Positions 4,437 through 24,508 of a DNA stretch of 26,439 nt are shown here, piece by piece; positions within the stretch are counted from its first letter, which is position 1, and each line of letters begins with the position of its first letter. The position numbers and the translations under genes are program-made. Under the pieces are notes generated by a model that saw only the letters and a program-made list of their open reading frames with translations, was not told the DNA's origin and searched no databases. The DNA lies in the IMG/VR virus record IMGVR_UViG_2651869691_000005; one strand, 5' to 3'. The stretch comes from a virus. Lineage: Duplodnaviria; Heunggongvirae; Uroviricota; Caudoviricetes.

Positions 4437-4956
4437 CAATCCACCTGCGCACATTCTCACCGGCTTCAGAAGCCACATCGGATGCTTTCGCGATTTCAGT
4501 TTTCACAGCATCAAGATGTGCGGGTGATATATCAGGGTATTTACGCTGCAGTGTCTGAGGGACACGGACAAGGCTCCCTGATATATTCTGTGCCACTCGC
4601 TGAAAGATGTAGGTAAATAACTCCGTCTCGAGGACAAGGCCTTCCTCACGAGCATTTTTCAGCTCCTGTGCATCGGCCTGTGCCTTCGTCAGTCGGTAAC
4701 GTTCGTAATCAATGGTGCCGGGCTGAAGGTCTGATTCGCTGGCAGCCCTCAAATCCTCGATCTCTTTACGGAGTTTTTCGTTTTCAATATCAGCTTCCCT
4801 CTGCGCATACCACTGAATGGCAGCAGTTGTATCAAAAACTGATTCAGTCCCTTTCCCTCCACCAGAAACTAGTGGTAACCCCTGACTCTGCCAGGCGGTG
4901 ATGGTCCTGACATCAACGCCAAAAATATCGGCCAGTTTTTTCTTATTGACGTTCAT
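4408..4956 (-). CDS. Nu1: Terminase small subunit (lambda Nu1-like)
   Basis: 182-aa [39 protein letters not shown]...[49 protein letters not shown], closely matching lambda Nu1 as recalled. Immediately downstream of cos. Confidence 0.9.
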
Positions 4957-4978
4957 ACACTCCCCCGGGAACCAGAAA

Positions 4979-5085
4979 GGATCTGAAAATGGCGTTTTCT
5001 AACAAAAACAGCCTTTGTCAGATCCTTTTATATTTTTAAAATTCTATTGATAATCAAACAGTTAAAAAAAGAAGAACGGATCTGA
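4979..5085. repeat. cosB-like repeats: three copies of GGATCTGA (4979-4986 and 5078-5085 direct, 5018-5025 inverted) between Nu1 start and cosN
   Basis: Exact 8-mer seen three times with A/T-rich flanks. The position corresponds to the lambda cosB R-elements bound by the small terminase subunit; that role is inferred. Confidence 0.5.
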
Positions 5086-5124
5086 TTTTTCCCTAAAAAT
5101 TTTCATAAATAGCGAAAACCCGCG

Positions 5125-5136
5125 AGGTCGCCGCCC
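5125..5136 (-). other. cosN cohesive-end site (12-nt GGGCGGCGACCT read on the minus strand)
   Basis: Reverse complement of 5091-5170 reads ...TTTCCGGCGATCCGGCAGGCTAC|GGGGCGGCGACCTCGCGGGTTTTCGCTATTTATGAAAATTTT, almost base for base the lambda right-end/left-end cos junction as recalled. A lambda right-end-like stretch continues at 5280-5335 (cosQ region). Confidence 0.85.
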
Positions 5137-5647
5137 CGTAGCCTGCCGGATCGCCGGAAAGGACCCAATAAAATGATAATAATTATCATTTATATAAATA
5201 CCATCACACATCCCACGTACACCATAAAACCACGACAAATAATCAATTTTGTCCAAGTCATGCATTAATTGATCTGTGTCAACTTAACGTAAAGACATCT
5301 TAAGACAATACAAATCAGCAGCACTGAACACGGAAAAACACAATGTCATCAAAAAATAAAGCTTCCCAAACCAGATGATTAATCAAATCCATATTGCCCT
5401 TGAACGTAAGGGATCGGGTAATTTTTCGGCATGGGTTATTGAAGCCTGCAGGAGAAGGCTGGCAACAGATGCAAAGCACCTGCGCCCGGCCAGCATGAAA
5501 AATAACGAGAAATGAACGTTCGGTTACAGGAACCGGTAGCTACTGTCTTCTAACAATATTTCATCTTCATATCCGGCGAAACAAGACTTTACCCTGCAGG
5601 GATGTACTGAATAGCAACAGAGTGATAATTAACTTCTGATAAAATAA

Positions 5648-5974
5648 TCAGGGTGCTGAAGGACTAAAGATAAATGTTTTCTTCACGCCTTTACGCGGCT
5701 TGTCCTTCTCAAATCGCCATTTTGCCATCGCCTTTACAACCTGCTCATCAAACAGATGGTGCGGCTCTGAACGGATAAACTCAATTCGGGTGACAGTACC
5801 ATCAGCACCAATATCAAACTTCACATCAACCCGTCCCTTTATATAATTTGCCGCGGCATAGGCCGGATATTGTGGTAATGCCTTAACCAACTGTCGAGGC
5901 ATATCTGTTTTATGTTGCGTACAGCCCATAACCAAAGAAGACAACAAAATAATTAACGGAAGATTTCTTTTCAT
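5648..5974 (-). CDS. Small lipoprotein with TonB C-terminal-like domain (moron between lysis genes and cos)
   Basis: From ATG 5972-5974: MKRNLPLIILLSSLVMGC... (signal peptide with lipobox-like Cys), then YPAYAAANYIKGRVDVKFDIGADGTVTRIEFIRSEPHHLFDEQVVKAMAKWRF, which fits the TonB_C pattern. Not lambda Bor. Confidence 0.55.
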   Translation of the reverse strand: MKRNLPLIILLSSLVMGCTQHKTDMPRQLVKALPQYPAYAAANYIKGRVDVKFDIGADGTVTRIEFIRSEPHHLFDEQVVKAMAKWRFEKDKPRKGVKKTFIFSPSAP

Positions 5975-6649
5975 TTTTATTCCCGGCATAGATAAGAATA
6001 AGTCTTATTCTAACAATGCAGCCCTGTCGGTCATCAATCCTCTGCTTAATGGCAATGACAATTATCCGACTTAAATCACAAATCAGACACATGACATAAC
6101 AGAGCTTGCGAGGTAACACATCGTCCGGTTTCTTCCACCATCGCACCGGACCAGCGACCATGAGGGGACAACGCCGCGCTCCGTTAACACGGTAAACCCC
6201 GGTGTGTATCGTTTTTGATTATCCCCGCACACTCGCGCAGAGGAGTCTCCCTCTCGGGCTGTGGTCTCTGTTGATGCGGGAATACGGCGACGATACAGTG
6301 CATAGTTATGTCAGGCTAAAATGCCTTTATCAAATCTGGGTAACGCAATCTGCCATTGTTGGCTCCGGTTGTGGTGATGATGTCAAGCAAGCCCATCTTG
6401 ACTATCTCAACTAGTCGATTCATGACATATGTCACATTTATACCAACCAGATCATTGCGTTGAGTTTACAACTCAATAATTCTTGGTTGGACGTCAAGTT
6501 TTGACGGTATTCGGGTGGCAGTTGATAGCAATCTTGGAACCGTCCACCTAATAGCTGCTTGTGTGGCGTTTAAATTGTGGAGTGCTCGCAACAGAACTTT
6601 TCTTTCTTGTTTGCGAGCGATGTTTAGCAACTTTTAAGAGAGTTAAGTC

Positions 6650-6880
6650 ATGGAGTTTTTGAAAGAGCATCATTTGCCTTCAATAATTTTTGGAATTTTT
6701 TCCGCCATTTTTTGGATTATTTCATGTTTTGCATCTTCCAAAGAACACCCACCAAAAACGGAACAAGGCAGTTTCTCATCACTGGGTTGTTTTAAAGCCA
6801 TTGAAATACAAAGTAAATGGAATAAACGGGCTGCTTTTTGCGCAGCGTTAGCTGTTCTTGCTCAAGTATTTAGCTTTTAG
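6650..6880 (+). CDS. Hypothetical small membrane protein (76 aa)
   Basis: ORF with a hydrophobic segment (LPSIIFGIFSAIFWIISCFA), opposite in orientation to the late genes, followed by an intrinsic terminator. Upstream region is rich in palindromes. Confidence 0.4.
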   Translation: MEFLKEHHLPSIIFGIFSAIFWIISCFASSKEHPPKTEQGSFSSLGCFKAIEIQSKWNKRAAFCAALAVLAQVFSF

Positions 6881-6897
6881 TTTCAAAAGTGTAAATC

Positions 6898-6931
6898 AGA
6901 ACCACTCGTATAGCGGGTGGTTCTCTGTTTT
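6898..6931 (+). terminator. Rho-independent terminator downstream of the 6650-6880 gene
   Basis: AGAACCAC...GTGGTTCT stem followed by a T-rich tract (CTGTTTTATT). Confidence 0.55.
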
Positions 6932-6996
6932 ATTCGTGTTGCGACTAAAACTAACTAAAATCACGCATATGAAAGATAATGGGAAAATTATCGCTA

Positions 6997-7434
6997 TCAT
7001 CGAAGGCATTGCGTCCTAATGTACTCCTGCAAGTAGTTAACCTGCGCGGTTATCCTGTCGATTCCACTTCGGAGACGGTAATAATTGAGTTCAGCATCTG
7101 CTGTAAGTCCTGGGGTTTCTCCATTGCCCATGCCGCTGGCTCCGGTCGTTGACTTTGCACAGGTGGCGGCGACTTGCAGGCGCTTACGCCCAGCAGAAAC
7201 ATCAGCACGGAGACTTTCGATAGTCGCATTAGCATCAGCAAGCTCCTTTGTGTATCTGGCGTCAAGTTCTGCTACATCACGTTGCCGCTTCTGCATATCA
7301 GCGATGATGGATGTGGCTTTATCGCGCTGCTCTTTGTAGGCGATGGCGTTATCACGGTAATGATTAACAGCCCATGAAAGGCAGACGATGAGGCAGATGA
7401 CCAGAACGTAGATAATCGCGGTTACTCTGCTCAT
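6997..7434 (-). CDS. Rz: Spanin, inner-membrane subunit (Rz)
   Basis: [39 protein letters not shown]... closely matches the lambda Rz N-terminus as recalled. Start ATG 7432-7434 overlaps the endolysin stop. Confidence 0.85.
7050..7235 (-). CDS. Rz1: Spanin, outer-membrane lipoprotein subunit (Rz1), embedded in Rz in the +1 frame
   Basis: Embedded ORF; from ATG 7233-7235 it reads [33 protein letters not shown]..., a lipobox followed by a proline-rich segment, the classic Rz1 arrangement. Confidence 0.75.
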
Positions 7435-7928
7435 TGTTGCCCCCACAAACAGACTTCACGCTCAATCTCACGGCGAGTCATCAGCCCTTTCCATTGCTTA
7501 CCGCCAGCGTATGTCCAGCGCCGTAGCTGATCACATGCGCCTTTGATATCGCCCTGGTTTATTTTGCGAAGAAGCGTCGATGTTCTGAAATTGCCAGCGC
7601 CCACGTTGTAAACGAACGAGTAAAGAGCGCCGCGCGTTGTTTCCGGTATATCGACGTTGATGTACGGGTTTATTTGTCTGGCGACCGTGGCAAGGTCTTT
7701 ATTCAGGAGGGCTTTGCATTCTGCTTCGGTATACGTTTTACCGGGCATGATGTCTTTTCCGGTGTGTCCGTGACATACAGTCCATACGCCAACGATATCT
7801 TCGTATGGTATGTAGCTGACACCTTCCAGGCCATCGTCACCACTCGGACCAGTGATGAGCACAGACGCTATGGCAACAGCCCCACCACCAATAGCAGCAG
7901 CAACAGCCTTGCGTAATGACGGCGACAT
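7431..7928 (-). CDS. R: SAR endolysin (phage 21 R21-like lysozyme)
   Basis: 165-aa [62 protein letters not shown]..., near-identical to the P21 SAR endolysin as recalled. N-terminal Gly/Ala-rich signal-anchor-release domain. Confidence 0.9.
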
Positions 7929-8134
7929 TATTCACCTCTCGCAGCCTTACGCTTATCTTCTTTAATCTTGAAATAAAGGTTTGTCAGATACGTCAGCAGG
8001 CCAAACAGCAGACTCCCCAGCACACCTATTGCCACCCACTGGGACGGAGAGACTTTGTCCAGCAGCTGCAGTAACCAGTATCCCGTCCCCACCGCTGACG
8101 TGGTGTATGACACACCTGTTGTGATTTTTTCCAT
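7928..8134 (-). CDS. S: Pinholin (phage 21 S21-like)
   Basis: 68-aa [71 protein letters not shown], matching S21 pinholin as recalled. Its stop overlaps the R start (TAATG). Confidence 0.85.
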
Positions 8135-8390
8135 CTGATGTATGTCTCCGTCACCGCCGACAGAAAATGAAAGTAAAGAAAAACAAAAAAGCCGCCAGTG
8201 TCACCCACTGACGGCCAACGCCGGGAGCCGTGATTATGGCATTCAGGCTCTGCTAAAAATGCCAGATAACATTCCGGCCAACCCCTGATTCAGGTTATAA
8301 ATGACACAATATCTTGACAACATCCGTCACTGTCTGTCAGAAAATGTACTGCCAAGTATAAGTATCATGTGAAGTACATCTACCCGTTTT

Positions 8391-8427
8391 AGCCAGCGTC
8401 CTTCAGAGTGGGCGCTGGCTTTTTTTA
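8391..8427 (+). terminator. Plus-strand-oriented intrinsic terminator hairpin between nanS-p and S
   Basis: AGCCAGCG...CGCTGGCT stem followed by TTTTTTT on the plus strand. On the minus (late) strand the hairpin is not followed by a U-run, so late transcription is not expected to stop here. Confidence 0.45.
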
Positions 8428-10278
8428 TTATGCTGCCGGTGCATTTATCTCCAGCACCAGACTTTCTATCTCAACGCCATACGCTGCATTTTTGGTAATA
8501 TCCGTCAGCGTCAGCGCATTCAGCCCCAGTGTCAGACTGTCTTTTATGACCTGGAATGCCGGGCCAGCCACTCCATTCAGTTTCGGAGTAACCGTGGCAC
8601 TGCCGGCGGTGAACACCAGTTCCAGCGTCTGCCAGTCATTACTGTAATTCCCGAACTCGCCCAACTTTGTGTTTCCTGCTTTCTTGTGATGCATCAGATT
8701 CAGTTTGCCGTCTGTGGTCTGGGTGAAGAACGACATCAGGAACGGGTTACCAGTCCCGGTCATCGCCACGACGTCAGGTAACGCTACATCGGTATACAGA
8801 TAAATTCCCAGGCCGAACTGGTTGTTGGTCAGTGCGCCTGACAGTCGAAACTTACAGCTCAGTCTGCCACCCCGTGTCAGCAGGGAGACTGCGTCATCCA
8901 CCGGATGCATCAGGGACCAGGTTTTATTGCTCTGCTTGGCGATCTTAAATACACCACCCGACAACTGAATTCCGCCGTCCTTAATGGTCCAGCCCTGCGC
9001 AGCAGCCTCTCCGGCTGTCGGCAACAGGGAGATTGTGCGTACGGATGCATCTTCAGACGGCCCCGATGGCGTGTTGCCGCCGGGCGAGGGTTTGATTTCC
9101 GGTGCCTTACCACTGATGAAAGCTGAGGTGCGCCCGGCTGCGTTCAGAATAGCGGTTGCCATACGATCCGGAATAATGCTCCTGCGCGCCCATGAACTGA
9201 AATGTGTCGGGCGGTTTGATGATACCTGGTTTCCATTCGTTCTCGATGCCGCACCGTAATATCCTGATGCCGGAATATCCGGATCTTCTGCCGGTGCGTT
9301 AGTGGCGGTATTGACGCCGTTACCGTCTGTCATGAAGGGCACAAAATAAACGCCCTCACTCTCCCTGTTTTTATACCCGCCGTACACGGTGTCGTACTGG
9401 GTAGCGTATGTATTTTTCCAGTAATACGTCGTGTCACCACAAATCCACGGCACATTTACAGCACTGCCACCATGACACTGCGCGTTAAACACAGTGAGGT
9501 CAGCACGAAACTGCTTCAGCATGGCTGTAAACAGCGCAGGTTGCTGTGCGTAGGTGGCGGCGCTCATGTCAAACTCTCCCTGCATCCAGCACACCGCCAG
9601 CAACACATTTTTCGGGTTCTTCTGTAATGCAGCTTTAGTGCGCGCAATCAGGTCCTGATATAACGGTTTACCCACCCCCCAGCGCGCCGAATCCTGGCTG
9701 GCCCCCGCGTCCGCACTGAATGTCCCCTCCGCGCCCTGGGTGAATGCCGAACCACCACGACAGCATGGTACCAGCAGGATCCCCGCGTTATTCGGGATAT
9801 ACGGGAGCAGTTTTTTGGCAATATGTAAGCCCTGGCCGACACAGCCGTACTGCCCTTTGCTCAGGTCTGCCTTCGGATGATTCAGCGTACTCATATCCTG
9901 CACATCATGCAGACAGTGGTCAGCCGGGATGATGTCGTTATACGTACAACTCTCTCCACCCGGAGTTACCGTGCTGCGGCGCGCCAGCTGTTTAATGCGC
10001 GGATCCGGAGCATCGTAAGAATCCGGTAACGGAAGCCCTTCACCGTAGGCCATGCCGTTGGACTGTCCGGCAAGCACAACCACGTAGAACCAGTCCGGCT
10101 CAGTTGCACCACTGACGACCACATCACCTTCTGCTGCAATCGCCTGCATCAGGGTATAAGGGGTTATGGCCACCGGACTACCAAACGGCTGCCAGCCCTC
10201 TTTCAGTTTATGTGTCAGCTTTTCCGCAAGATCTGACGGCGACGCCGCCCTGACAACATCATAGTGTTTAAATGCCAT
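8428..10278 (-). CDS. nanS-p: Prophage sialate O-acetylesterase (NanS-p-like; N-terminal DUF1737-like segment plus SGNH/SASA esterase domain)
   Basis: Large ORF; N-terminus MAFKHYDVVRAASPSDLAEKL... and a GQSN esterase motif (VVVLAGQSNGMAYGEG). Sits immediately upstream of S, as the nanS-p genes do in EHEC Stx prophages. Start chosen at ATG 10276-10278 for its better SD. Confidence 0.8.
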   Translation of the reverse strand: MAFKHYDVVRAASPSDLAEKLTHKLKEGWQPFGSPVAITPYTLMQAIAAEGDVVVSGATEPDWFYVVVLAGQSNGMAYGEGLPLPDSYDAPDPRIKQLARRSTVTPGGESCTYNDIIPADHCLHDVQDMSTLNHPKADLSKGQYGCVGQGLHIAKKLLPYIPNNAGILLVPCCRGGSAFTQGAEGTFSADAGASQDSARWGVGKPLYQDLIARTKAALQKNPKNVLLAVCWMQGEFDMSAATYAQQPALFTAMLKQFRADLTVFNAQCHGGSAVNVPWICGDTTYYWKNTYATQYDTVYGGYKNRESEGVYFVPFMTDGNGVNTATNAPAEDPDIPASGYYGAASRTNGNQVSSNRPTHFSSWARRSIIPDRMATAILNAAGRTSAFISGKAPEIKPSPGGNTPSGPSEDASVRTISLLPTAGEAAAQGWTIKDGGIQLSGGVFKIAKQSNKTWSLMHPVDDAVSLLTRGGRLSCKFRLSGALTNNQFGLGIYLYTDVALPDVVAMTGTGNPFLMSFFTQTTDGKLNLMHHKKAGNTKLGEFGNYSNDWQTLELVFTAGSATVTPKLNGVAGPAFQVIKDSLTLGLNALTLTDITKNAAYGVEIESLVLEINAPAA

Positions 10279-10874: not shown

Positions 10875-11306
10875 GGAGTTTACTCACATCTGACAAAATC
10901 AATATAAACAGCCCCTCCGGAGAGGGGCTGGAGAGTGGCGCTATGTGCCATTGCATGGTGCCGGGTGCCTCCCGGTGAATTCAGTACCAGCACCTGAATC
11001 CGCGATTATCCCATATACCTACTCGCTGATTGCCCCTCCGCACAGGGGGATTCACCATGCCAGTTTCTTTTAACAAACTCCCCGCAAACCAGACAACAGT
11101 CAACCGCCTGAATTGTGAAGTATTTAAAAATTTCTCCGGCTAACAGTCTGGCGTTTTCTTTTTCAGCAACGGGAAAGCAACAACCACCACACCCGCCACC
11201 AGTACACAGTCAGCCAGCACTGACATTATCCGGCTGCTGCAATGCCATTCACAAAAACAGTAAGCAATCACTTTTTACCGTAACAGGTGATAATCCAGAT
11301 ATGTAT

Positions 11307-11770: not shown

Positions 11771-11847
11771 TGGCGCGTTGTACTGGATTCGAACCAGTGA
11801 CCGATTGCTTAGAAGGCAATTGCTCTGTCCGGCTGAGCTAACAACGC
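11771..11847 (-). tRNA. tRNA-Arg (anticodon UCU)
   Basis: Reverse complement GCGTTGTTAGCTCAGCCGGACAGAGCAATTGCCTTCTAAGCAATCGGTCACTGGTTCGAATCCAGTACAACGCGCCA folds as a canonical cloverleaf with a TCT anticodon, TTCGAAT T-loop and encoded CCA. Confidence 0.8.
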
Positions 11848-11944: not shown

Positions 11945-12020
11945 TGGTGGCCCTTGCTGGATTTGAACCAGCGACCTGGCGATTATGAGTCGCTCGCTCT
12001 CACCACTGAGCTAAAGGGCC
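11945..12020 (-). tRNA. tRNA-Ile2 type (anticodon CAU, ileX/ileZ-like; elongator Met cannot be excluded from sequence alone)
   Basis: Reverse complement GGCCCTTTAGCTCAGTGGTGAGAGCGAGCGACTCATAATCGCCAGGTCGCTGGTTCAAATCCAGCAAGGGCCACCA; canonical cloverleaf, closely resembling E. coli ileX as recalled. Confidence 0.8.
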
Positions 12021-14615: not shown

Positions 14616-15743
14616 TCATGCTTTCCACTTCAGGACACCCGAATTTCTCGCGTGCATTAAAAAACGAATCAGCAACAACAGCTGGCTGCCGTGTTTTTCT
14701 TCAAAATCTTTTACCCCGGCGTGTAGTTCGCTATGGCATTTACGGCACAGCGGAATAACAAACAAATCATCAGCCTTTGTTCCCATCCCTCCCAGTCCAT
14801 GACCAATGATGTGATGCGGATCATCTGCCTGATTACCACACGTCATGCATTTCTGCGTTTTTACCCAACGCGTGTATACAGGCATCTCTTCCCGTCGTGG
14901 TTTCTGGCGCTGGAGATACTGAGCCGGTGACTCCGGATCAACGGCAATGCTTACCACCGTCTTTTCCTGTGGCGGGTTTTGCTGGTGGGCGTGAGGCAGT
15001 AGCGCAATATTTTTTGTGCGCTGCTTCAGCATGCTGGTGGCGGTCTGCTCTCCCGGCACGATGTCGCTCTCGCGGTATACTGAGCGAATTTTTTCCGCGC
15101 GTAATCCCAGTGAACGACGTAACACCGTCTCCGGTAGTGCGTCCGCTACGTTATTTATGGTTGCCCACCAGGATAATTCAGCCAGCGATAATTCCCGCTC
15201 CTGCGTGCCATTCATTGCGTGGCGGATGACATCAATCATCCATGCTGACAGGTTTTGGTGAGCAAGCTGCCCGAGTGATTCGGAAGTCTGGTTACGCAGC
15301 TGGTTGTCGCAGTGCCAGCACAACACCATCGCGCCGGTACCGTAACAATGTATGACGGTTTCACTGTGATGGTAGTCACCATGAGGCCACTGGCAGGATT
15401 TAATGTGGCGTAACAGCCAGTCAGACAATGCACCAGCACCACCAGCAGCACGAATCACCCGCTCATCGCTGAAAAATGGCAGTAATGATTTATCCTCCGC
15501 CAGCGGCTGGCGAACAGCAGGAACGACTCCGGACGGCAGACCGCGCATGCTTTTCGGTTCCGGCTCCACCAGAACTCGAGGGTTATGAAATACCTGCATG
15601 GATTCACGGCCCGGTTTTAGCACCACCAGCCCAAGTTCCGGTACCGGAACAGGTCGAAGTAATACCCGCACGTTACCTCCAGATGCGTTGCTGGAATGTG
15701 CGGGACGGACGCGGTGGGCGTTCGGAATAAGGGAGCCTGACAT
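14616..15743 (-). CDS. DUF968-family prophage protein with C-terminal HNH-like zinc-binding motif
   Basis: C-terminus CMTCGNQADDPHHIIGHGLGGMGTKADDLFVIPLCRKCHSELH (two Cys pairs plus HH). Same position as ydfU-type genes in Qin-like prophages as recalled. Start uncertain; internal ATG at 15597-15599 is an alternative. Confidence 0.65.
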   Translation of the reverse strand: MSGSLIPNAHRVRPAHSSNASGGNVRVLLRPVPVPELGLVVLKPGRESMQVFHNPRVLVEPEPKSMRGLPSGVVPAVRQPLAEDKSLLPFFSDERVIRAAGGAGALSDWLLRHIKSCQWPHGDYHHSETVIHCYGTGAMVLCWHCDNQLRNQTSESLGQLAHQNLSAWMIDVIRHAMNGTQERELSLAELSWWATINNVADALPETVLRRSLGLRAEKIRSVYRESDIVPGEQTATSMLKQRTKNIALLPHAHQQNPPQEKTVVSIAVDPESPAQYLQRQKPRREEMPVYTRWVKTQKCMTCGNQADDPHHIIGHGLGGMGTKADDLFVIPLCRKCHSELHAGVKDFEEKHGSQLLLLIRFLMHARNSGVLKWKA

Positions 15744-16112: not shown

Positions 16113-16268
16113 TTACTCCTCAGGTTCGTAAGCTGTGAAGACAGCGACCTCCGTCTGGCCGGTTCGGATTCGTACCTCGCAGAGGTCTTTCCTCGTTACC
16201 AGTGCCGTCACTATGACGGTTAAACAGATGACGATCAGGGCGATTAACATCGCCTTTTGCTGCTTCAT
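16113..16268 (-). CDS. hok: Hok/Gef-family type I toxin (51 aa; HokD/RelF-like)
   Basis: Found by manual translation (below the ORF-track size cutoff): MKQQKAMLIALIVICLTVIVTALVTRKDLCEVRIRTGQTEVAVFTAYEPEE, matching Hok/Gef family sequence as recalled. SD AAGGAG 8 nt upstream. A 19-codon upstream ORF (from 16322-16324) ends in ATGA overlap with the hok start. Confidence 0.8.
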   Translation of the reverse strand: MKQQKAMLIALIVICLTVIVTALVTRKDLCEVRIRTGQTEVAVFTAYEPEE

Positions 16269-16526
16269 AGCCTGCTTCTCCTTGACCTTTCGGTCCGTAA
16301 GAGGCTAATCTCTATGTGTCGCATAGATATGGCCTCAGATTAATGTTAAGCGTCTTGCAGGACGCGTAATGTTAACTGGGGCTTTTCTCTATCTGCCTTT
16401 TGGTGTTCATGCCTGAGACAGATAGCCTCAAGCACCCGCAGTCATTCTACTTAACTAAGATTTCCCCGCAAACCGTTTTTGTCCGGCACAGTAAATATCC
16501 AACTAAACCAATGGCGTTCGCTGTAT

Positions 16527-24450: not shown

Positions 24451-24508
24451 TTTCTGGTGACGTTTGGCGGTATCAGTTTTACTCCGTGACTGGTCTGCCG
24501 CCCTTTTT
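24451..24508 (+). ncRNA. dicF: DicF sRNA homologue
   Basis: TTTCTGGTGACGTTTGGCGGTATCAGTTTTACTCCGTGACTGGTCTGCCGCCCTTTTT matches the ~53-nt E. coli DicF sequence as I recall it, with one or two substitutions. Lies in a ~550-nt noncoding stretch of the early-left operon, as dicF does in Qin. Confidence 0.7.

What the first reader, a model, noticed from the sequence alone, without database searches (positions are those of the whole stretch)
6420..6931. Palindrome-rich control region driving a small membrane-protein moron opposite to the late operon
Upstream of the plus-strand 76-aa membrane-protein gene (6650-6880) there is an unusual density of dyad symmetries: a perfect 12-bp palindrome TGACATATGTCA (6423-6434), nested inverted repeats CCAACCA...TGGTTGG enclosing TTGAGTT-TAC-AACTCAA (6444-6493), and GCTCGCAA...TTGCGAGC (about 6585-6618). 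The gene has its own terminator (6898-6931). An independently regulated small membrane protein at this position resembles lysogenic-conversion morons; the palindromes may be operator sites for a host or phage regulator.
Basis: seen in the sequence. Interest (0 to 1): 0.45.

Follow-up and report, generated by a model that had tools for sequence, protein, structure and literature searches.

The report
Moron driven from a dead terminase-gene stub
The "palindrome-rich control region" is the decayed front end of a foreign small-terminase gene; it very probably carries the same weak promoter and long leader as the phage P22 pid locus and so drives a small membrane-protein gene, which makes this an ordinary prophage add-on gene with an unusually traceable origin.

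Summary
The features exist where stated, but most of the palindromes are not a control device. Window 6337-6623 (minus strand) is a pseudogenised 5' stub of a Terminase_2-family small-terminase gene (terS): the start codon is lost and there is an in-frame stop and frameshifts. The same stub, 84% identical, is the stretch between orf80 and pid in phage P22, where the pid promoter and transcription start have been mapped by experiment. By homology the window has a -35 TTGCGT (6455-6460), a -10 AATTCT (6478-6483), a start near 6490, a 160-nt leader with a conserved hairpin (6583-6619), the 76-aa gene (6650-6880) and an intrinsic terminator (6898-6934). In Citrobacter sedlakii the homologous gene sits 26 bp upstream of, and divergent from, an intact terS. 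Across about 70 diverged enterobacterial terS genes this slot holds 39 unrelated cargo families. The promoter lies inside terS codons. The 12-bp palindrome and the nested repeats are absent or imperfect in P22 and in intact terS genes, and their number is near chance. The third dyad is a conserved RNA hairpin, not an operator. The 76-aa protein is a two-helix membrane protein (phrog_14357) under purifying selection; its function is unknown. Verdict: the moron call is right and the operator idea is largely unsupported. One lead remains, a CRP-like site at -61.5.

The parts
6337..6623 (-). Decayed 5' fragment (about codons 1-98) of a Terminase_2-family small-terminase gene. The start codon is lost (ATG to ACA, 6621-6623). 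There is an in-frame TAA at 6466-6468 and there are frameshifts. The residual 54-aa ORF 6466-6630 is its longest open piece.
   Evidence: tblastn of intact TerS proteins gives E = 3e-21 to 7e-16, with the stop and frame changes visible. Alignment with intact terS genes of C. sedlakii, E. coli GN25 and phiES15. 196 E. coli genomes match this stretch at 60-80%, and the rows listed annotate it as 'terminase small subunit'.
6349..6610 (+). Block 84% identical to P22 40757-41021 (the stretch between the orf80 start and pid, which holds the Ppid promoter and most of the 5'UTR). 6349-6356 is the reverse complement of ATGGCAGA, the first 8 nt of an orf80-type gene that is otherwise deleted here.
   Evidence: L185 shows the same relic with orf80 intact
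6455..6460 (+). -35-like hexamer TTGCGT (P22: TTGCTT), 17 nt upstream of the -10.
   Evidence: Position-for-position homology to P22 Ppid. TTGCGY with a 17-nt spacer occurs in 58 of 72 intact terS representatives.
6478..6483 (+). -10 hexamer AATTCT, homologous to the P22 Ppid Pribnow box AATCCT, where the up-mutations C-183A and C-182A map.
   Evidence: PMC8835761. The P22 coordinates were reproduced on L002. In intact terS genes the hexamer is the reverse complement of codons Arg50-Ile51.
6490..6649 (+). Predicted transcription start (G at 6490, 7 nt after the -10) and a 160-nt 5' untranslated leader. The leader is antisense to the first ~45 codons of the dead terS.
   Evidence: Homology to the dRNA-seq-mapped TSS of pid (P22 nt 40880, a 174-nt leader). 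This is inferred, not measured, for this window.
6583..6619 (+). Leader hairpin (arms GCTCGCAA 6584-6591 and TTGCGAGC 6611-6618), -14.7 kcal/mol.
   Evidence: It forms in the MFE and centroid folds. The same hairpin spans codons 1-16 of intact terS genes. Synonymous sites in its arms are frozen, and it is more stable in the cargo-sense RNA (-19.5 against -13.0 kcal/mol). It is retained in P22 (-18.0) and C. sedlakii (-22.1).
6636..6642 (+). Weak Shine-Dalgarno-like AAGAGAG, 7 nt before the ATG. The variant L008 has AAGGAGAG.
6650..6880 (+). Gene for a 76-aa helical-hairpin membrane protein of family phrog_14357.
   Evidence: (dN/dS 0.18)
6898..6934 (+). Intrinsic terminator of the cargo transcript. 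It has no T-run when read on the late-operon strand.
6421..6436 (.). CATGACATATGTCACA. It contains the 12-bp palindrome and matches the CRP core TGTGA-N6-TCACA with 2 mismatches. It is centred at -61.5 from the predicted start.
   Evidence: Hits of this quality occur at chance frequency in the window (15 found, 12.3 expected), so it is a lead only.
6443..6490 (.). Nested inverted repeats. The outer arms flank the promoter from about -47 to +1. The inner repeat (6460-6476) fills the promoter spacer and contains the relic's stop codon.
5975..6354 (-). Backbone DNA to the left of the module: the last ~44 nt of an rha-type gene plus the rha-TonB intergenic region of Stx-type lambdoid phages (92-94% identity).

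Best explanation
The region is a transplanted moron cassette whose control region is a dead gene fragment.

Native arrangement. In a large clade of enterobacterial pac-type phages, the small-terminase gene (terS, Pfam Terminase_2) has a divergently transcribed accessory gene 12-33 nt upstream of its start codon.

Promoter. The weak sigma-70 promoter for that accessory gene lies inside terS, about 130 nt into the coding sequence. Its -10, NATYCT, is the reverse complement of codons Arg50-Ile51. Its -35, TTGCGY, overlaps codons Gln57-Asn59. The accessory mRNA therefore starts with a leader of about 160 nt that is antisense to the terS 5' end and includes a conserved hairpin.

Transplanted copy. 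Here, as in the P22 pid locus, this promoter-leader piece has been carried into a phage that uses a different terminase (lambda-type Nu1/A with a cos site at 5123-5136). No longer needed as a gene, it has decayed into a pseudogene stub (6337-6623).

Predicted transcript. RNA polymerase starts near 6490 at a low, largely constitutive rate. It transcribes the leader, whose hairpin at 6583-6619 probably acts in RNA processing or stability. It then transcribes the 76-aa gene (6650-6880), which has a weak ribosome-binding site, and stops at the intrinsic terminator (6898-6934). The terminator hairpin probably also stabilises the mRNA, as shown for pid. Expression should scale with prophage or episome copy number, and the cassette can be read in lysogens because the opposing late operon is off.

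Product. The product is a two-helix inner-membrane protein. Its most likely role, by analogy only, is that of a prophage accessory function at the membrane, such as superinfection exclusion.

Palindromes. The 12-bp palindrome and the nested repeats are by-products of sequence decay and are not required.

Shown and inferred. Shown here: the terS origin, the homology to the mapped P22 promoter, the native arrangement, the variable slot, purifying selection on the cargo gene, and the terminator. Inferred: promoter activity and the start site in this prophage, the role of the hairpin, and the function of the protein.
For: terS origin. tblastn of intact TerS proteins against the window gives E = 3e-21, with a stop and frameshifts. 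Alignments agree. 196 complete E. coli genomes carry an intact homologue; 11 carry the relic.

P22 homology. 84% identity over 262 nt, exactly the orf80-pid stretch. The published -10, TSS and 174-nt leader were reproduced on the P22 sequence and transferred without indels to 6478-6483 and 6490. pid in BTP1 lysogens reaches TPM 81-1110.

Native arrangement. The 74%-identical homologue in C. sedlakii lies 26 bp from an intact Terminase_2 terS. Window 6363-6881 is collinear with it.

Variable slot. 55 of 69 diverged terS representatives have a divergent ORF of at least 55 aa starting within 40 nt. There are 39 unrelated cargo clusters among 90 loci. A third cargo follows the same relic in L185/L192.

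Promoter written in codons. Arg50 uses the rare AGR codons in 55 of 72 representatives, against 0-12 of 72 at five other conserved Arg positions. TTGCGY with a 17-nt spacer occurs in 58 of 72.

Cargo is a real gene. dN/dS is 0.18. There is a family of about 20 clusters, 15 of 20 matching phrog_14357. The AlphaFold2 model has pLDDT 92 and is a helical hairpin.

Other. Terminator z = -3.6. Low G+C.
Against: No transcript data exist for this prophage. The core hexamers match consensus at only 3 of 6 positions each, and the consensus scan missed them.

In P22, a promoter fragment starting at -70 was inactive while one starting at -176 was active, so something upstream of -70 is needed. The window shares P22 sequence only down to about -141.

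The ribosome-binding site is weak.

The AGR-codon signal and its association with divergent ORFs (odds ratio 4, Fisher p = 0.04) are not corrected for shared ancestry.

The leader as a whole is no more structured than shuffles (z = -0.5), and the hairpin is weak in the L185 variant.

Only 6 of 55 native cargo genes showed a strict terminator-like site within 150 nt, so a promoter-gene-terminator layout is not general in the native slot.
Confidence: 0.68

Rival explanations
1. Some of the palindromes are true regulator-binding sites. The 12-bp palindrome would be part of a CRP (cAMP receptor protein) site that activates the weak promoter from the class I position. The repeat across the spacer would bind a repressor.
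For: CATGACATATGTCACA (6421-6436) matches TGTGA-N6-TCACA with 2 mismatches. It matches the 22-bp CRP consensus at 14 of 22 positions. It is centred exactly at -61.5 from the homology-inferred start in both the window and P22.

The relics have a perfect TCACA half-site where intact terS genes have TCGCA or TTGCA.

BTP1 pid rises 14-fold from early exponential to early stationary phase in LB.

The core promoter is too weak to work well unaided, and P22 needs DNA upstream of -70.

The inner palindrome fills the promoter spacer. The inverted-repeat load is in the top 4% of windows.
Against: Matches of this quality are at chance frequency in the window (15 found, 12.3 expected), and the position was noticed after the fact.

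The P22 fragment that begins at -70 still contains the 16-bp core yet is inactive.

The flanking late genes also rise with growth phase in BTP1, so prophage induction or copy number can explain part of the pid profile.

The inner and outer repeats are absent from P22, where the promoter works without phage factors. The cassette encodes no regulator.
Confidence: 0.17
2. The whole stretch is inert debris: a dead terS stub followed by a chance or decaying ORF that is not expressed.
For: The relic is clearly a pseudogene. The ribosome-binding site is weak. One E. coli copy (L008) carries three single-base indels in the ORF. The locus is rare, in 11 of 5426 complete E. coli genomes. No function is known.
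Against: dN/dS is 0.18 against the C. sedlakii homologue. There is a conserved protein family with invariant W22, Q54, A61 and A62. The fold prediction is confident. The ORF is intact and nearly identical in 11 genomes and 10 viral contigs. The homologous promoter is active in P22 and BTP1. The L008 indels sit in homopolymer runs and may be assembly errors.
Confidence: 0.08
3. The main product is the leader RNA. It is antisense to the 5' end of Terminase_2-type terS mRNAs and would interfere with superinfecting phages that use that terminase. In the native phages it would damp their own terS.
For: The leader is antisense to terS codons 1-45, including the start region. The hairpin region is the most conserved part of intact terS genes. 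There is a precedent for a prophage antisense RNA giving exclusion: STnc6030 of BTP1 (PMC7067206). 196 E. coli genomes carry potential target phages.
Against: Identity to intact terS genes is only 68-76%, which is poor for extended pairing. The relic is decaying rather than tracking targets. The cargo ORF is under selection in its own right. There is no experimental support.
Confidence: 0.05

Closest known systems
Phage P22 / BTP1 pid moron locus (Cenens 2013, PMC3573128; Wolput 2022, PMC8835761)
   Same: The upstream 262 nt are homologous (84%). They carry the mapped weak promoter, the transcription start and most of the unusually long leader, including its hairpin. Both loci are transcribed against the late operon, between the lysis genes and the packaging genes. 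Both end in a Rho-independent terminator. Both stubs retain the first nucleotides of orf80 on the far side.
   Different: The cargo is unrelated: an 86-aa soluble Pid in P22 and a 76-aa membrane protein here. The terminator is not homologous. The host phage is lambda-like with a cos site, not P22-like. The -10 is AATTCT rather than AATCCT. The nested palindromes are specific to this haplotype. Neither pid paper contains the word 'terminase'.
Native terS-divergent accessory-gene slot of Terminase_2 phages (C. sedlakii prophage L007, E. coli GN25 prophage, Cronobacter phage phiES15)
   Same: Same gene family next to the same terS 5' sequence (L007). Same hexamers at the same codons and the same hairpin.
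   Different: There terS is intact and functional, and the intergenic gap is only 12-33 nt. Here terS is a dead stub and the phage packages DNA with a different terminase.
Lambda bor and other late-region morons (lambda lom, HK97 gp15)
   Same: A small envelope-associated protein gene embedded in the late region, with its own promoter. Like bor, it lies between Rz and cos on the opposite strand. These genes are expressed from the prophage.
   Different: There is no sequence or fold relationship. The protein is not a lipoprotein: Cys26 fits a lipobox-like IISC, but the cysteine is not conserved in the family. The function has not been tested.

Membership tests
Moron (extra gene in a phage operon with its own transcription signals) | Present between genes that are adjacent, or differently filled, in related phages | tested here: met
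   Related lambdoid phages carry rha or KilA-N genes between Rz and the TonB-like gene. The backbone homology stops at 6354 and resumes at about 7004.
Moron (extra gene in a phage operon with its own transcription signals) | Own promoter | tested here: inconclusive
   Met by homology to the mapped P22 Ppid. The hexamers are weak, the consensus scan missed them, and there are no transcript data for this prophage.
Moron (extra gene in a phage operon with its own transcription signals) | Own terminator | tested here: met
   Stem at 6898-6924 plus a T-run; z = -3.6.
Moron (extra gene in a phage operon with its own transcription signals) | Base composition unlike the flanks | tested here: met
   G+C is 0.36-0.42 across 6300-6999, against 0.50-0.58 on both sides.
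Moron (extra gene in a phage operon with its own transcription signals) | Expressed from the repressed prophage | not testable with these tools
   There is only indirect support: pid behind the homologous promoter reaches TPM above 100 in BTP1 lysogens, but is barely expressed in P22 lysogens.
P22 pid locus | Ppid promoter and long 5'UTR | tested here: met
   84% identity. The -35, -10 and TSS are in register. The leader is 160 nt, against 174 nt in P22.
P22 pid locus | Encodes Pid | tested here: not met
   The cargo protein is unrelated to Pid, and homology ends about 40 nt before the ATG.
Terminase_2 small-terminase gene (PF03592) | Sequence homology to the N-terminal domain | tested here: met
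   tblastn E = 3e-21. The motifs LNATQAAIR and NDLVGIN are recognisable. The L007 homologue carries PF03592.
Terminase_2 small-terminase gene (PF03592) | Intact reading frame of about 170-190 codons | tested here: not met
   No start codon, a TAA at 6466-6468, frameshifts, and truncation after about codon 98.
CRP class I activated promoter | CRP site centred near -61.5 | tested here: inconclusive
   A 2-mismatch core is centred at -61.5 in the window and in P22, but such cores occur at chance frequency in the window.
CRP class I activated promoter | Dependence on CRP-cAMP | not testable with these tools
   This needs crp or cya mutants, or binding assays.
phrog_14357 small membrane proteins | Match to the family profile and shared two-helix architecture | tested here: met
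   E = 1.3e-6 for the window protein. 15 of 20 relatives match, the best at 1.9e-32. Conserved W22, Q54, N58, A61 and A62. The AlphaFold2 model is a helical hairpin.
Known anti-phage defence proteins (PADLOC) | Match to a defence-system profile | tested here: not met
   No hit at E <= 0.1. There is also no Pfam hit above threshold and no NCBIfam hit at E <= 0.1.

The most novel reading that the evidence does not exclude
In a widespread clade of enterobacterial pac-type phages, the promoter for a hypervariable accessory-gene slot is encoded inside the small-terminase gene. It is held there by rare AGR codons at Arg50. Every cargo mRNA then begins with a conserved, structured leader antisense to the terS translation start. 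This would couple accessory-gene expression to terminase control. It would also make the terS 5' end both a portable promoter module and the recombination anchor for cargo swapping. The P22 pid locus and this locus would be transplanted, fossilised copies, which would explain pid's 'exceptionally long 5'UTR'. The relic leader might retain anti-terS activity against other phages.
Probability: 0.3. Interest if true: 0.6.

Novelty: new member of a known kind. Interest (0 to 1): 0.38.

Why it matters
For this locus, the result replaces a speculative operator model with a concrete and testable transcript map: promoter hexamers, start site, leader hairpin and terminator. It also links an unstudied EPEC prophage gene to the only experimentally dissected relative, P22 pid.

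More generally, it gives an evolutionary explanation for the odd architecture of the pid locus, with its weak eroded promoter far upstream and its 174-nt leader. These are leftovers of a small-terminase gene that natively hosts the promoter of a divergent accessory-gene slot.

That slot held 39 unrelated cargo families among 90 loci. It is a ready-made place to look for new prophage accessory or defence genes, and an example of a promoter maintained inside a coding sequence. The 76-aa protein family itself remains functionally blank.

Tried and rejected
RNA families. Rfam searches found nothing in 4500-9000 at E <= 1 and nothing for the region at gathering thresholds over the whole window.

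Promoter scan. The sigma-70 consensus scan reported no + strand site between 6349 and 6650. The only nearby hit, at 6659-6687, lies inside the ORF and was disregarded.

Function of the 76-aa protein. Pfam gave nothing above threshold, and PADLOC and NCBIfam gave no hit. Foldseek against viral models gave no match below E = 0.6. Gene neighbourhoods of two distant family members gave no shared functional partner: one lay in a prophage late region and one among chromosomal metabolic genes.

Lipoprotein idea. The IISC motif at residues 23-26 resembles a lipobox, but the cysteine is not conserved, so this was rejected.

Global leader structure. The leader is not more stable than shuffles. Only the local hairpin stands out.

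Terminators in the native slot. Only 6 of 55 native cargo genes had a strict terminator-like site downstream, fewer than on the opposite strand (15 of 55). No claim is made that native cargos are full promoter-gene-terminator cassettes.

-10 hexamer and divergent ORFs. The association is weak and uncorrected for ancestry, so it is treated as supporting colour only.

Pac-site idea. The stub might act as a pac site, but the phage packages from a lambda-type cos site with Nu1/A-type terminase genes, so this was not pursued.

Literature. Two full-text searches did not turn up a report of a terS-embedded promoter or of the terS origin of the pid leader. The one candidate paper opened did not mention it, and neither pid paper contains the word 'terminase'. 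The library is incomplete, so this does not prove absence.
Full report
**Context.** The window is a lambda-like prophage read with its late operon on the minus strand. In order along that strand it carries:
- holin, 7928-8134;
- lysozyme, 7431-7928;
- Rz, 6997-7446;
- the finding region;
- a TonB_C-domain gene, 5648-5989;
- a cos site, CGAGGTCGCCGCCC, at 5123-5136;
- Nu1-type and A-type terminase genes and the portal gene.

An identical 701-nt stretch occurs in 11 of 5426 complete E. coli genomes, including EPEC E2348/69. There the 76-aa ORF is annotated as hypothetical and nothing is annotated upstream of it.

**1. Observation.** The terminator is convincing: -20.5 kcal/mol, z = -3.6. The density of dyads is less so. 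The window has four perfect 12-nt palindromes, against 6.9 +/- 2.7 in dinucleotide shuffles. The inverted-repeat load of 6420-6620 is matched or exceeded by 4% of equally long windows of the same sequence. No consensus sigma-70 promoter was reported upstream of the ORF.

**2. What the upstream region is.**

*Match to P22.* Megablast against phage genomes matched only window 6349-6610, at 84%. The matching stretch in P22 and BTP1 lies between the start of orf80 and the pid gene.

*Match to intact terS genes.* A more sensitive search matched the same block at 68-76%. The matches fall at the 5' end of genes annotated 'terminase small subunit' in Cronobacter phage phiES15 and in E. coli prophages.

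*Pseudogene status.* tblastn with those proteins aligns window 6576-6337 (minus strand) to TerS residues 17-98, with E values down to 3e-21. The alignment contains an in-frame TAA and a frame-scrambled segment. Residues 1-16 are recognisable in another frame, and the start codon is mutated.

The 'control region' is therefore a pseudogenised stub of a Terminase_2-family terS. It is foreign to this cos-packaging phage.

**3. Native arrangement.** Word-indexed searching found only two other clusters of the 76-aa protein.
- The C. sedlakii homologue (74% identity) lies 26 bp upstream of, and divergent from, an intact Terminase_2 terS. It sits in a prophage ordered Q, holin, lysozyme, Rz, ANT-domain gene, cargo gene, terS, a 520-aa gene with no Pfam hit, portal. 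Window 6363-6881 is collinear with that locus at 74%.
- The other cluster (L008) is the same E. coli locus with three single-base indels.

*Survey.* I collected 160 terS loci from genomes and viral contigs. Among representatives below 95% nucleotide identity, 55 of 69 have a divergent ORF of at least 55 aa starting within 40 nt of terS. The 90 such cargos fall into 39 unrelated clusters. They include lipoprotein-like, multi-pass membrane and larger soluble proteins, and one distant relative (33% identity) of the 76-aa protein. The position directly upstream of this terS is therefore a hypervariable accessory-gene slot.

**4. Promoter.** Wolput et al. (PMC8835761) mapped the P22 pid promoter. 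They reported:
- an eroded -10, AATCCT, at -186 to -181 from the pid ATG;
- two up-mutations inside that hexamer;
- a dRNA-seq start 174 nt upstream of the ATG (P22 nt 40880);
- basal activity on a plasmid without phage factors;
- a leader region needed for a second, shorter RNA species;
- a terminator needed for transcript stability.

I reproduced these coordinates on the P22 sequence. There are no indels between P22 and the window across the promoter. The window equivalents are therefore a -35 TTGCGT at 6455-6460, a 17-nt spacer, a -10 AATTCT at 6478-6483 and a start at G6490. This gives a 160-nt leader.

The same hexamers sit at the same codons in intact terS genes. The -10 is the reverse complement of Arg50-Ile51, and it has its final T only if Arg50 is AGA or AGG. 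Arg50 is AGR in 55 of 72 representatives. The five other conserved arginines are AGR in 0, 4, 4, 2 and 12 of 72. TTGCGY with a 17-nt spacer occurs in 58 of 72.

This fits a promoter maintained inside the coding sequence. The test is not corrected for phylogeny, and the link with presence of a divergent ORF is weak (odds ratio 4, p = 0.04).

**5. The palindromes, one by one** (alignments).

*TGACATATGTCA (6423-6434).* It encodes V-T-Y-V-M of the dead TerS. It reads TGACATGTGTCA in P22 and is unrecognisable in intact genes.

*CCAACCA / TGGTTGG.* The right arm is TGGCTGG in P22 and worse elsewhere.

*TTGAGTT-TAC-AACTCAA.* It fills the promoter spacer and is built around the relic's TAA stop. The P22 equivalent is TTAAGTT-TAC-AGAACAA. 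These three dyads are specific to this haplotype. The same haplotype also occurs with a third, different cargo and an intact orf80 in two viral contigs.

*GCTCGCAA-N19-TTGCGAGC.* This dyad is different. It corresponds to a hairpin spanning terS codons 1-16 that is conserved in 29 distinct intact sequences.
- Synonymous sites in the arm codons are almost invariant, while the loop codons vary.
- The hairpin is more stable in the cargo-sense RNA (-19.5 kcal/mol) than in the terS-sense RNA (-13.0), because of G-U pairs.
- It persists in the P22 relic (-18.0) and in the window (-14.7, an 8-bp perfect stem with two double changes relative to intact genes). It is weak in L185.
- In P22 it lies at leader positions ~95-135, and the right arm falls in the 110-162 segment whose removal abolishes the shorter pid RNA.

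I infer that it is an RNA processing or stability element of the leader, not a DNA operator.

**6. A residual regulator lead.** The 16-mer CATGACATATGTCACA (6421-6436) matches the CRP core with two mismatches. It is centred at -61.5 from the inferred start in both the window and P22. The relics have a perfect TCACA half-site where intact genes do not.

Two further facts bear on it. BTP1 pid rises from TPM 81 to 1110 between early exponential and early stationary phase. P22 needs DNA upstream of -70 for promoter activity.

Against it, such matches occur at chance frequency in the window (15 found, 12.3 expected). The inactive P22 fragment still contains the core. Neighbouring late genes also rise with growth phase. 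I rate this at about 0.17.

**7. Mosaic history.**
- Identity to P22 is about 93% over 6360-6478.
- It falls to the level seen with intact terS genes by 6537-6621.
- Beyond 6622 only C. sedlakii matches.
- To the left, 5975-6354 is lambdoid backbone: the last 44 nt of an rha-type gene and the rha-TonB spacer, at 92-94% to Stx-type phages.
- 6349-6356 keeps the first 8 nt of orf80, as in P22.
- To the right, homology to Rz resumes at about 7004.

The simplest reading is that an already truncated terS stub of the P22 type exchanged its cargo by recombination within the conserved terS 5' end. The cassette then landed in the variable Rz-cos slot of a lambda-like phage, the position of bor in lambda.

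**8. The cargo.** The ORF is under purifying selection (dN/dS 0.18 against C. sedlakii). An exhaustive profile search of 1.84 billion representatives found about 20 clusters of 75-99 aa proteins. They share an N-terminal hydrophobic helix and a Q-x-K-W-N-x-R-A-A motif leading into a second helix. Fifteen of the 20 match phrog_14357, whose function is unknown. AlphaFold2 gives a confident helical hairpin, with pLDDT 92 and helices at 2-26 and 44-75. There is no informative fold match and no Pfam, PADLOC or NCBIfam assignment. Relatives occur both in prophage late regions and in chromosomal islets. A membrane-level accessory role such as superinfection exclusion is the likeliest guess by analogy, and it is no more than a guess.

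**9. Comparison and novelty.** The locus meets the structural criteria of a moron. It is a sibling of the P22 pid locus with a different cargo, hence 'new member of a known kind'. What may be new is the explanation of the shared control region as a fossil terS 5' end that natively houses the promoter of a hypervariable divergent slot. The two pid papers do not mention terminase. My searches found no report of it, but the library is incomplete.

**10. Verdict.** The moron interpretation is right. The operator interpretation is largely wrong: one dyad is an RNA hairpin and the others are haplotype-specific decay products, with a CRP-like site as an open lead. Interest is moderate (0.38). The locus is an ordinary kind of element with an instructive origin, and the broader terS-embedded-promoter idea deserves an experimental test.

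Noticed in passing
L185 6912-7975 and L192 9050-10113 (viral contigs): The same relic haplotype (94% identity, all palindromes present) is followed by a third, unrelated cargo segment of about 740 nt and is preceded by an intact orf80 homologue. The stub therefore occurs with at least three different cargos.
   Followed up: partly
terS loci L011-L170, region immediately upstream of terS: A hypervariable divergent slot holds 39 unrelated cargo clusters among 90 loci. They include lipoprotein-like, multi-pass membrane and 150-220-aa soluble proteins that may be worth screening for defence functions.
   Followed up: partly
L008 4001-4225 (E. coli GCA_900448305.1): This copy of the 76-aa gene has three single-base indels in homopolymer runs, which give a scrambled middle and C-terminus (protein P0003). 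It is either a decaying allele or an assembly error. Its ribosome-binding site (AAGGAGAG) is better than the window's.
   Followed up: no
window 5123-5136: A lambda-type cohesive-end sequence (reverse complement of GGGCGGCGACCTCG) lies about 170 nt upstream of the Nu1-like gene. It confirms cos packaging and makes the Terminase_2 stub foreign to this phage.
   Followed up: partly
window 5375-5515 (+): A second small gene runs against the late operon: a 46-aa DUF3950 protein (Pfam E = 8e-19) between cos and the TonB_C gene. It may be another moron-like insert.
   Followed up: no
window 5648-5989 (-): This 113-aa protein has a TonB C-terminal domain (Pfam E = 3e-15), but its PHROG family (phrog_1267, E = 3e-42) is labelled 'Rz-like spanin'. 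The two labels conflict, so one of them is probably wrong.
   Followed up: no
window 11771-11847 and 11945-12020 (-): The prophage carries tRNA-Arg(TCT), which reads the rare AGA codon, and a tRNA-Met.
   Followed up: no
window 10900-11089 (-), 16266-16437 (-), 24452-24503 (+): Rfam matches above the gathering scores: STnc100 sRNA (132 bits), sok antitoxin RNA of a hok/sok-type module (107 bits) and DicF antisense sRNA (74 bits).
   Followed up: no
window 15636-15649 and 5188-5199: The longest perfect palindromes in the window lie elsewhere: 14 nt at 15636 and 12 nt at 5188, the latter in the AT-rich stretch next to cos.
   Followed up: no
window 7006-7165 versus P22 (L002 2309-2468): The 3' part of the Rz gene is 94% identical to P22 gene 15. 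This is a second P22-like patch next to the cassette in an otherwise lambda-like late region.
   Followed up: no
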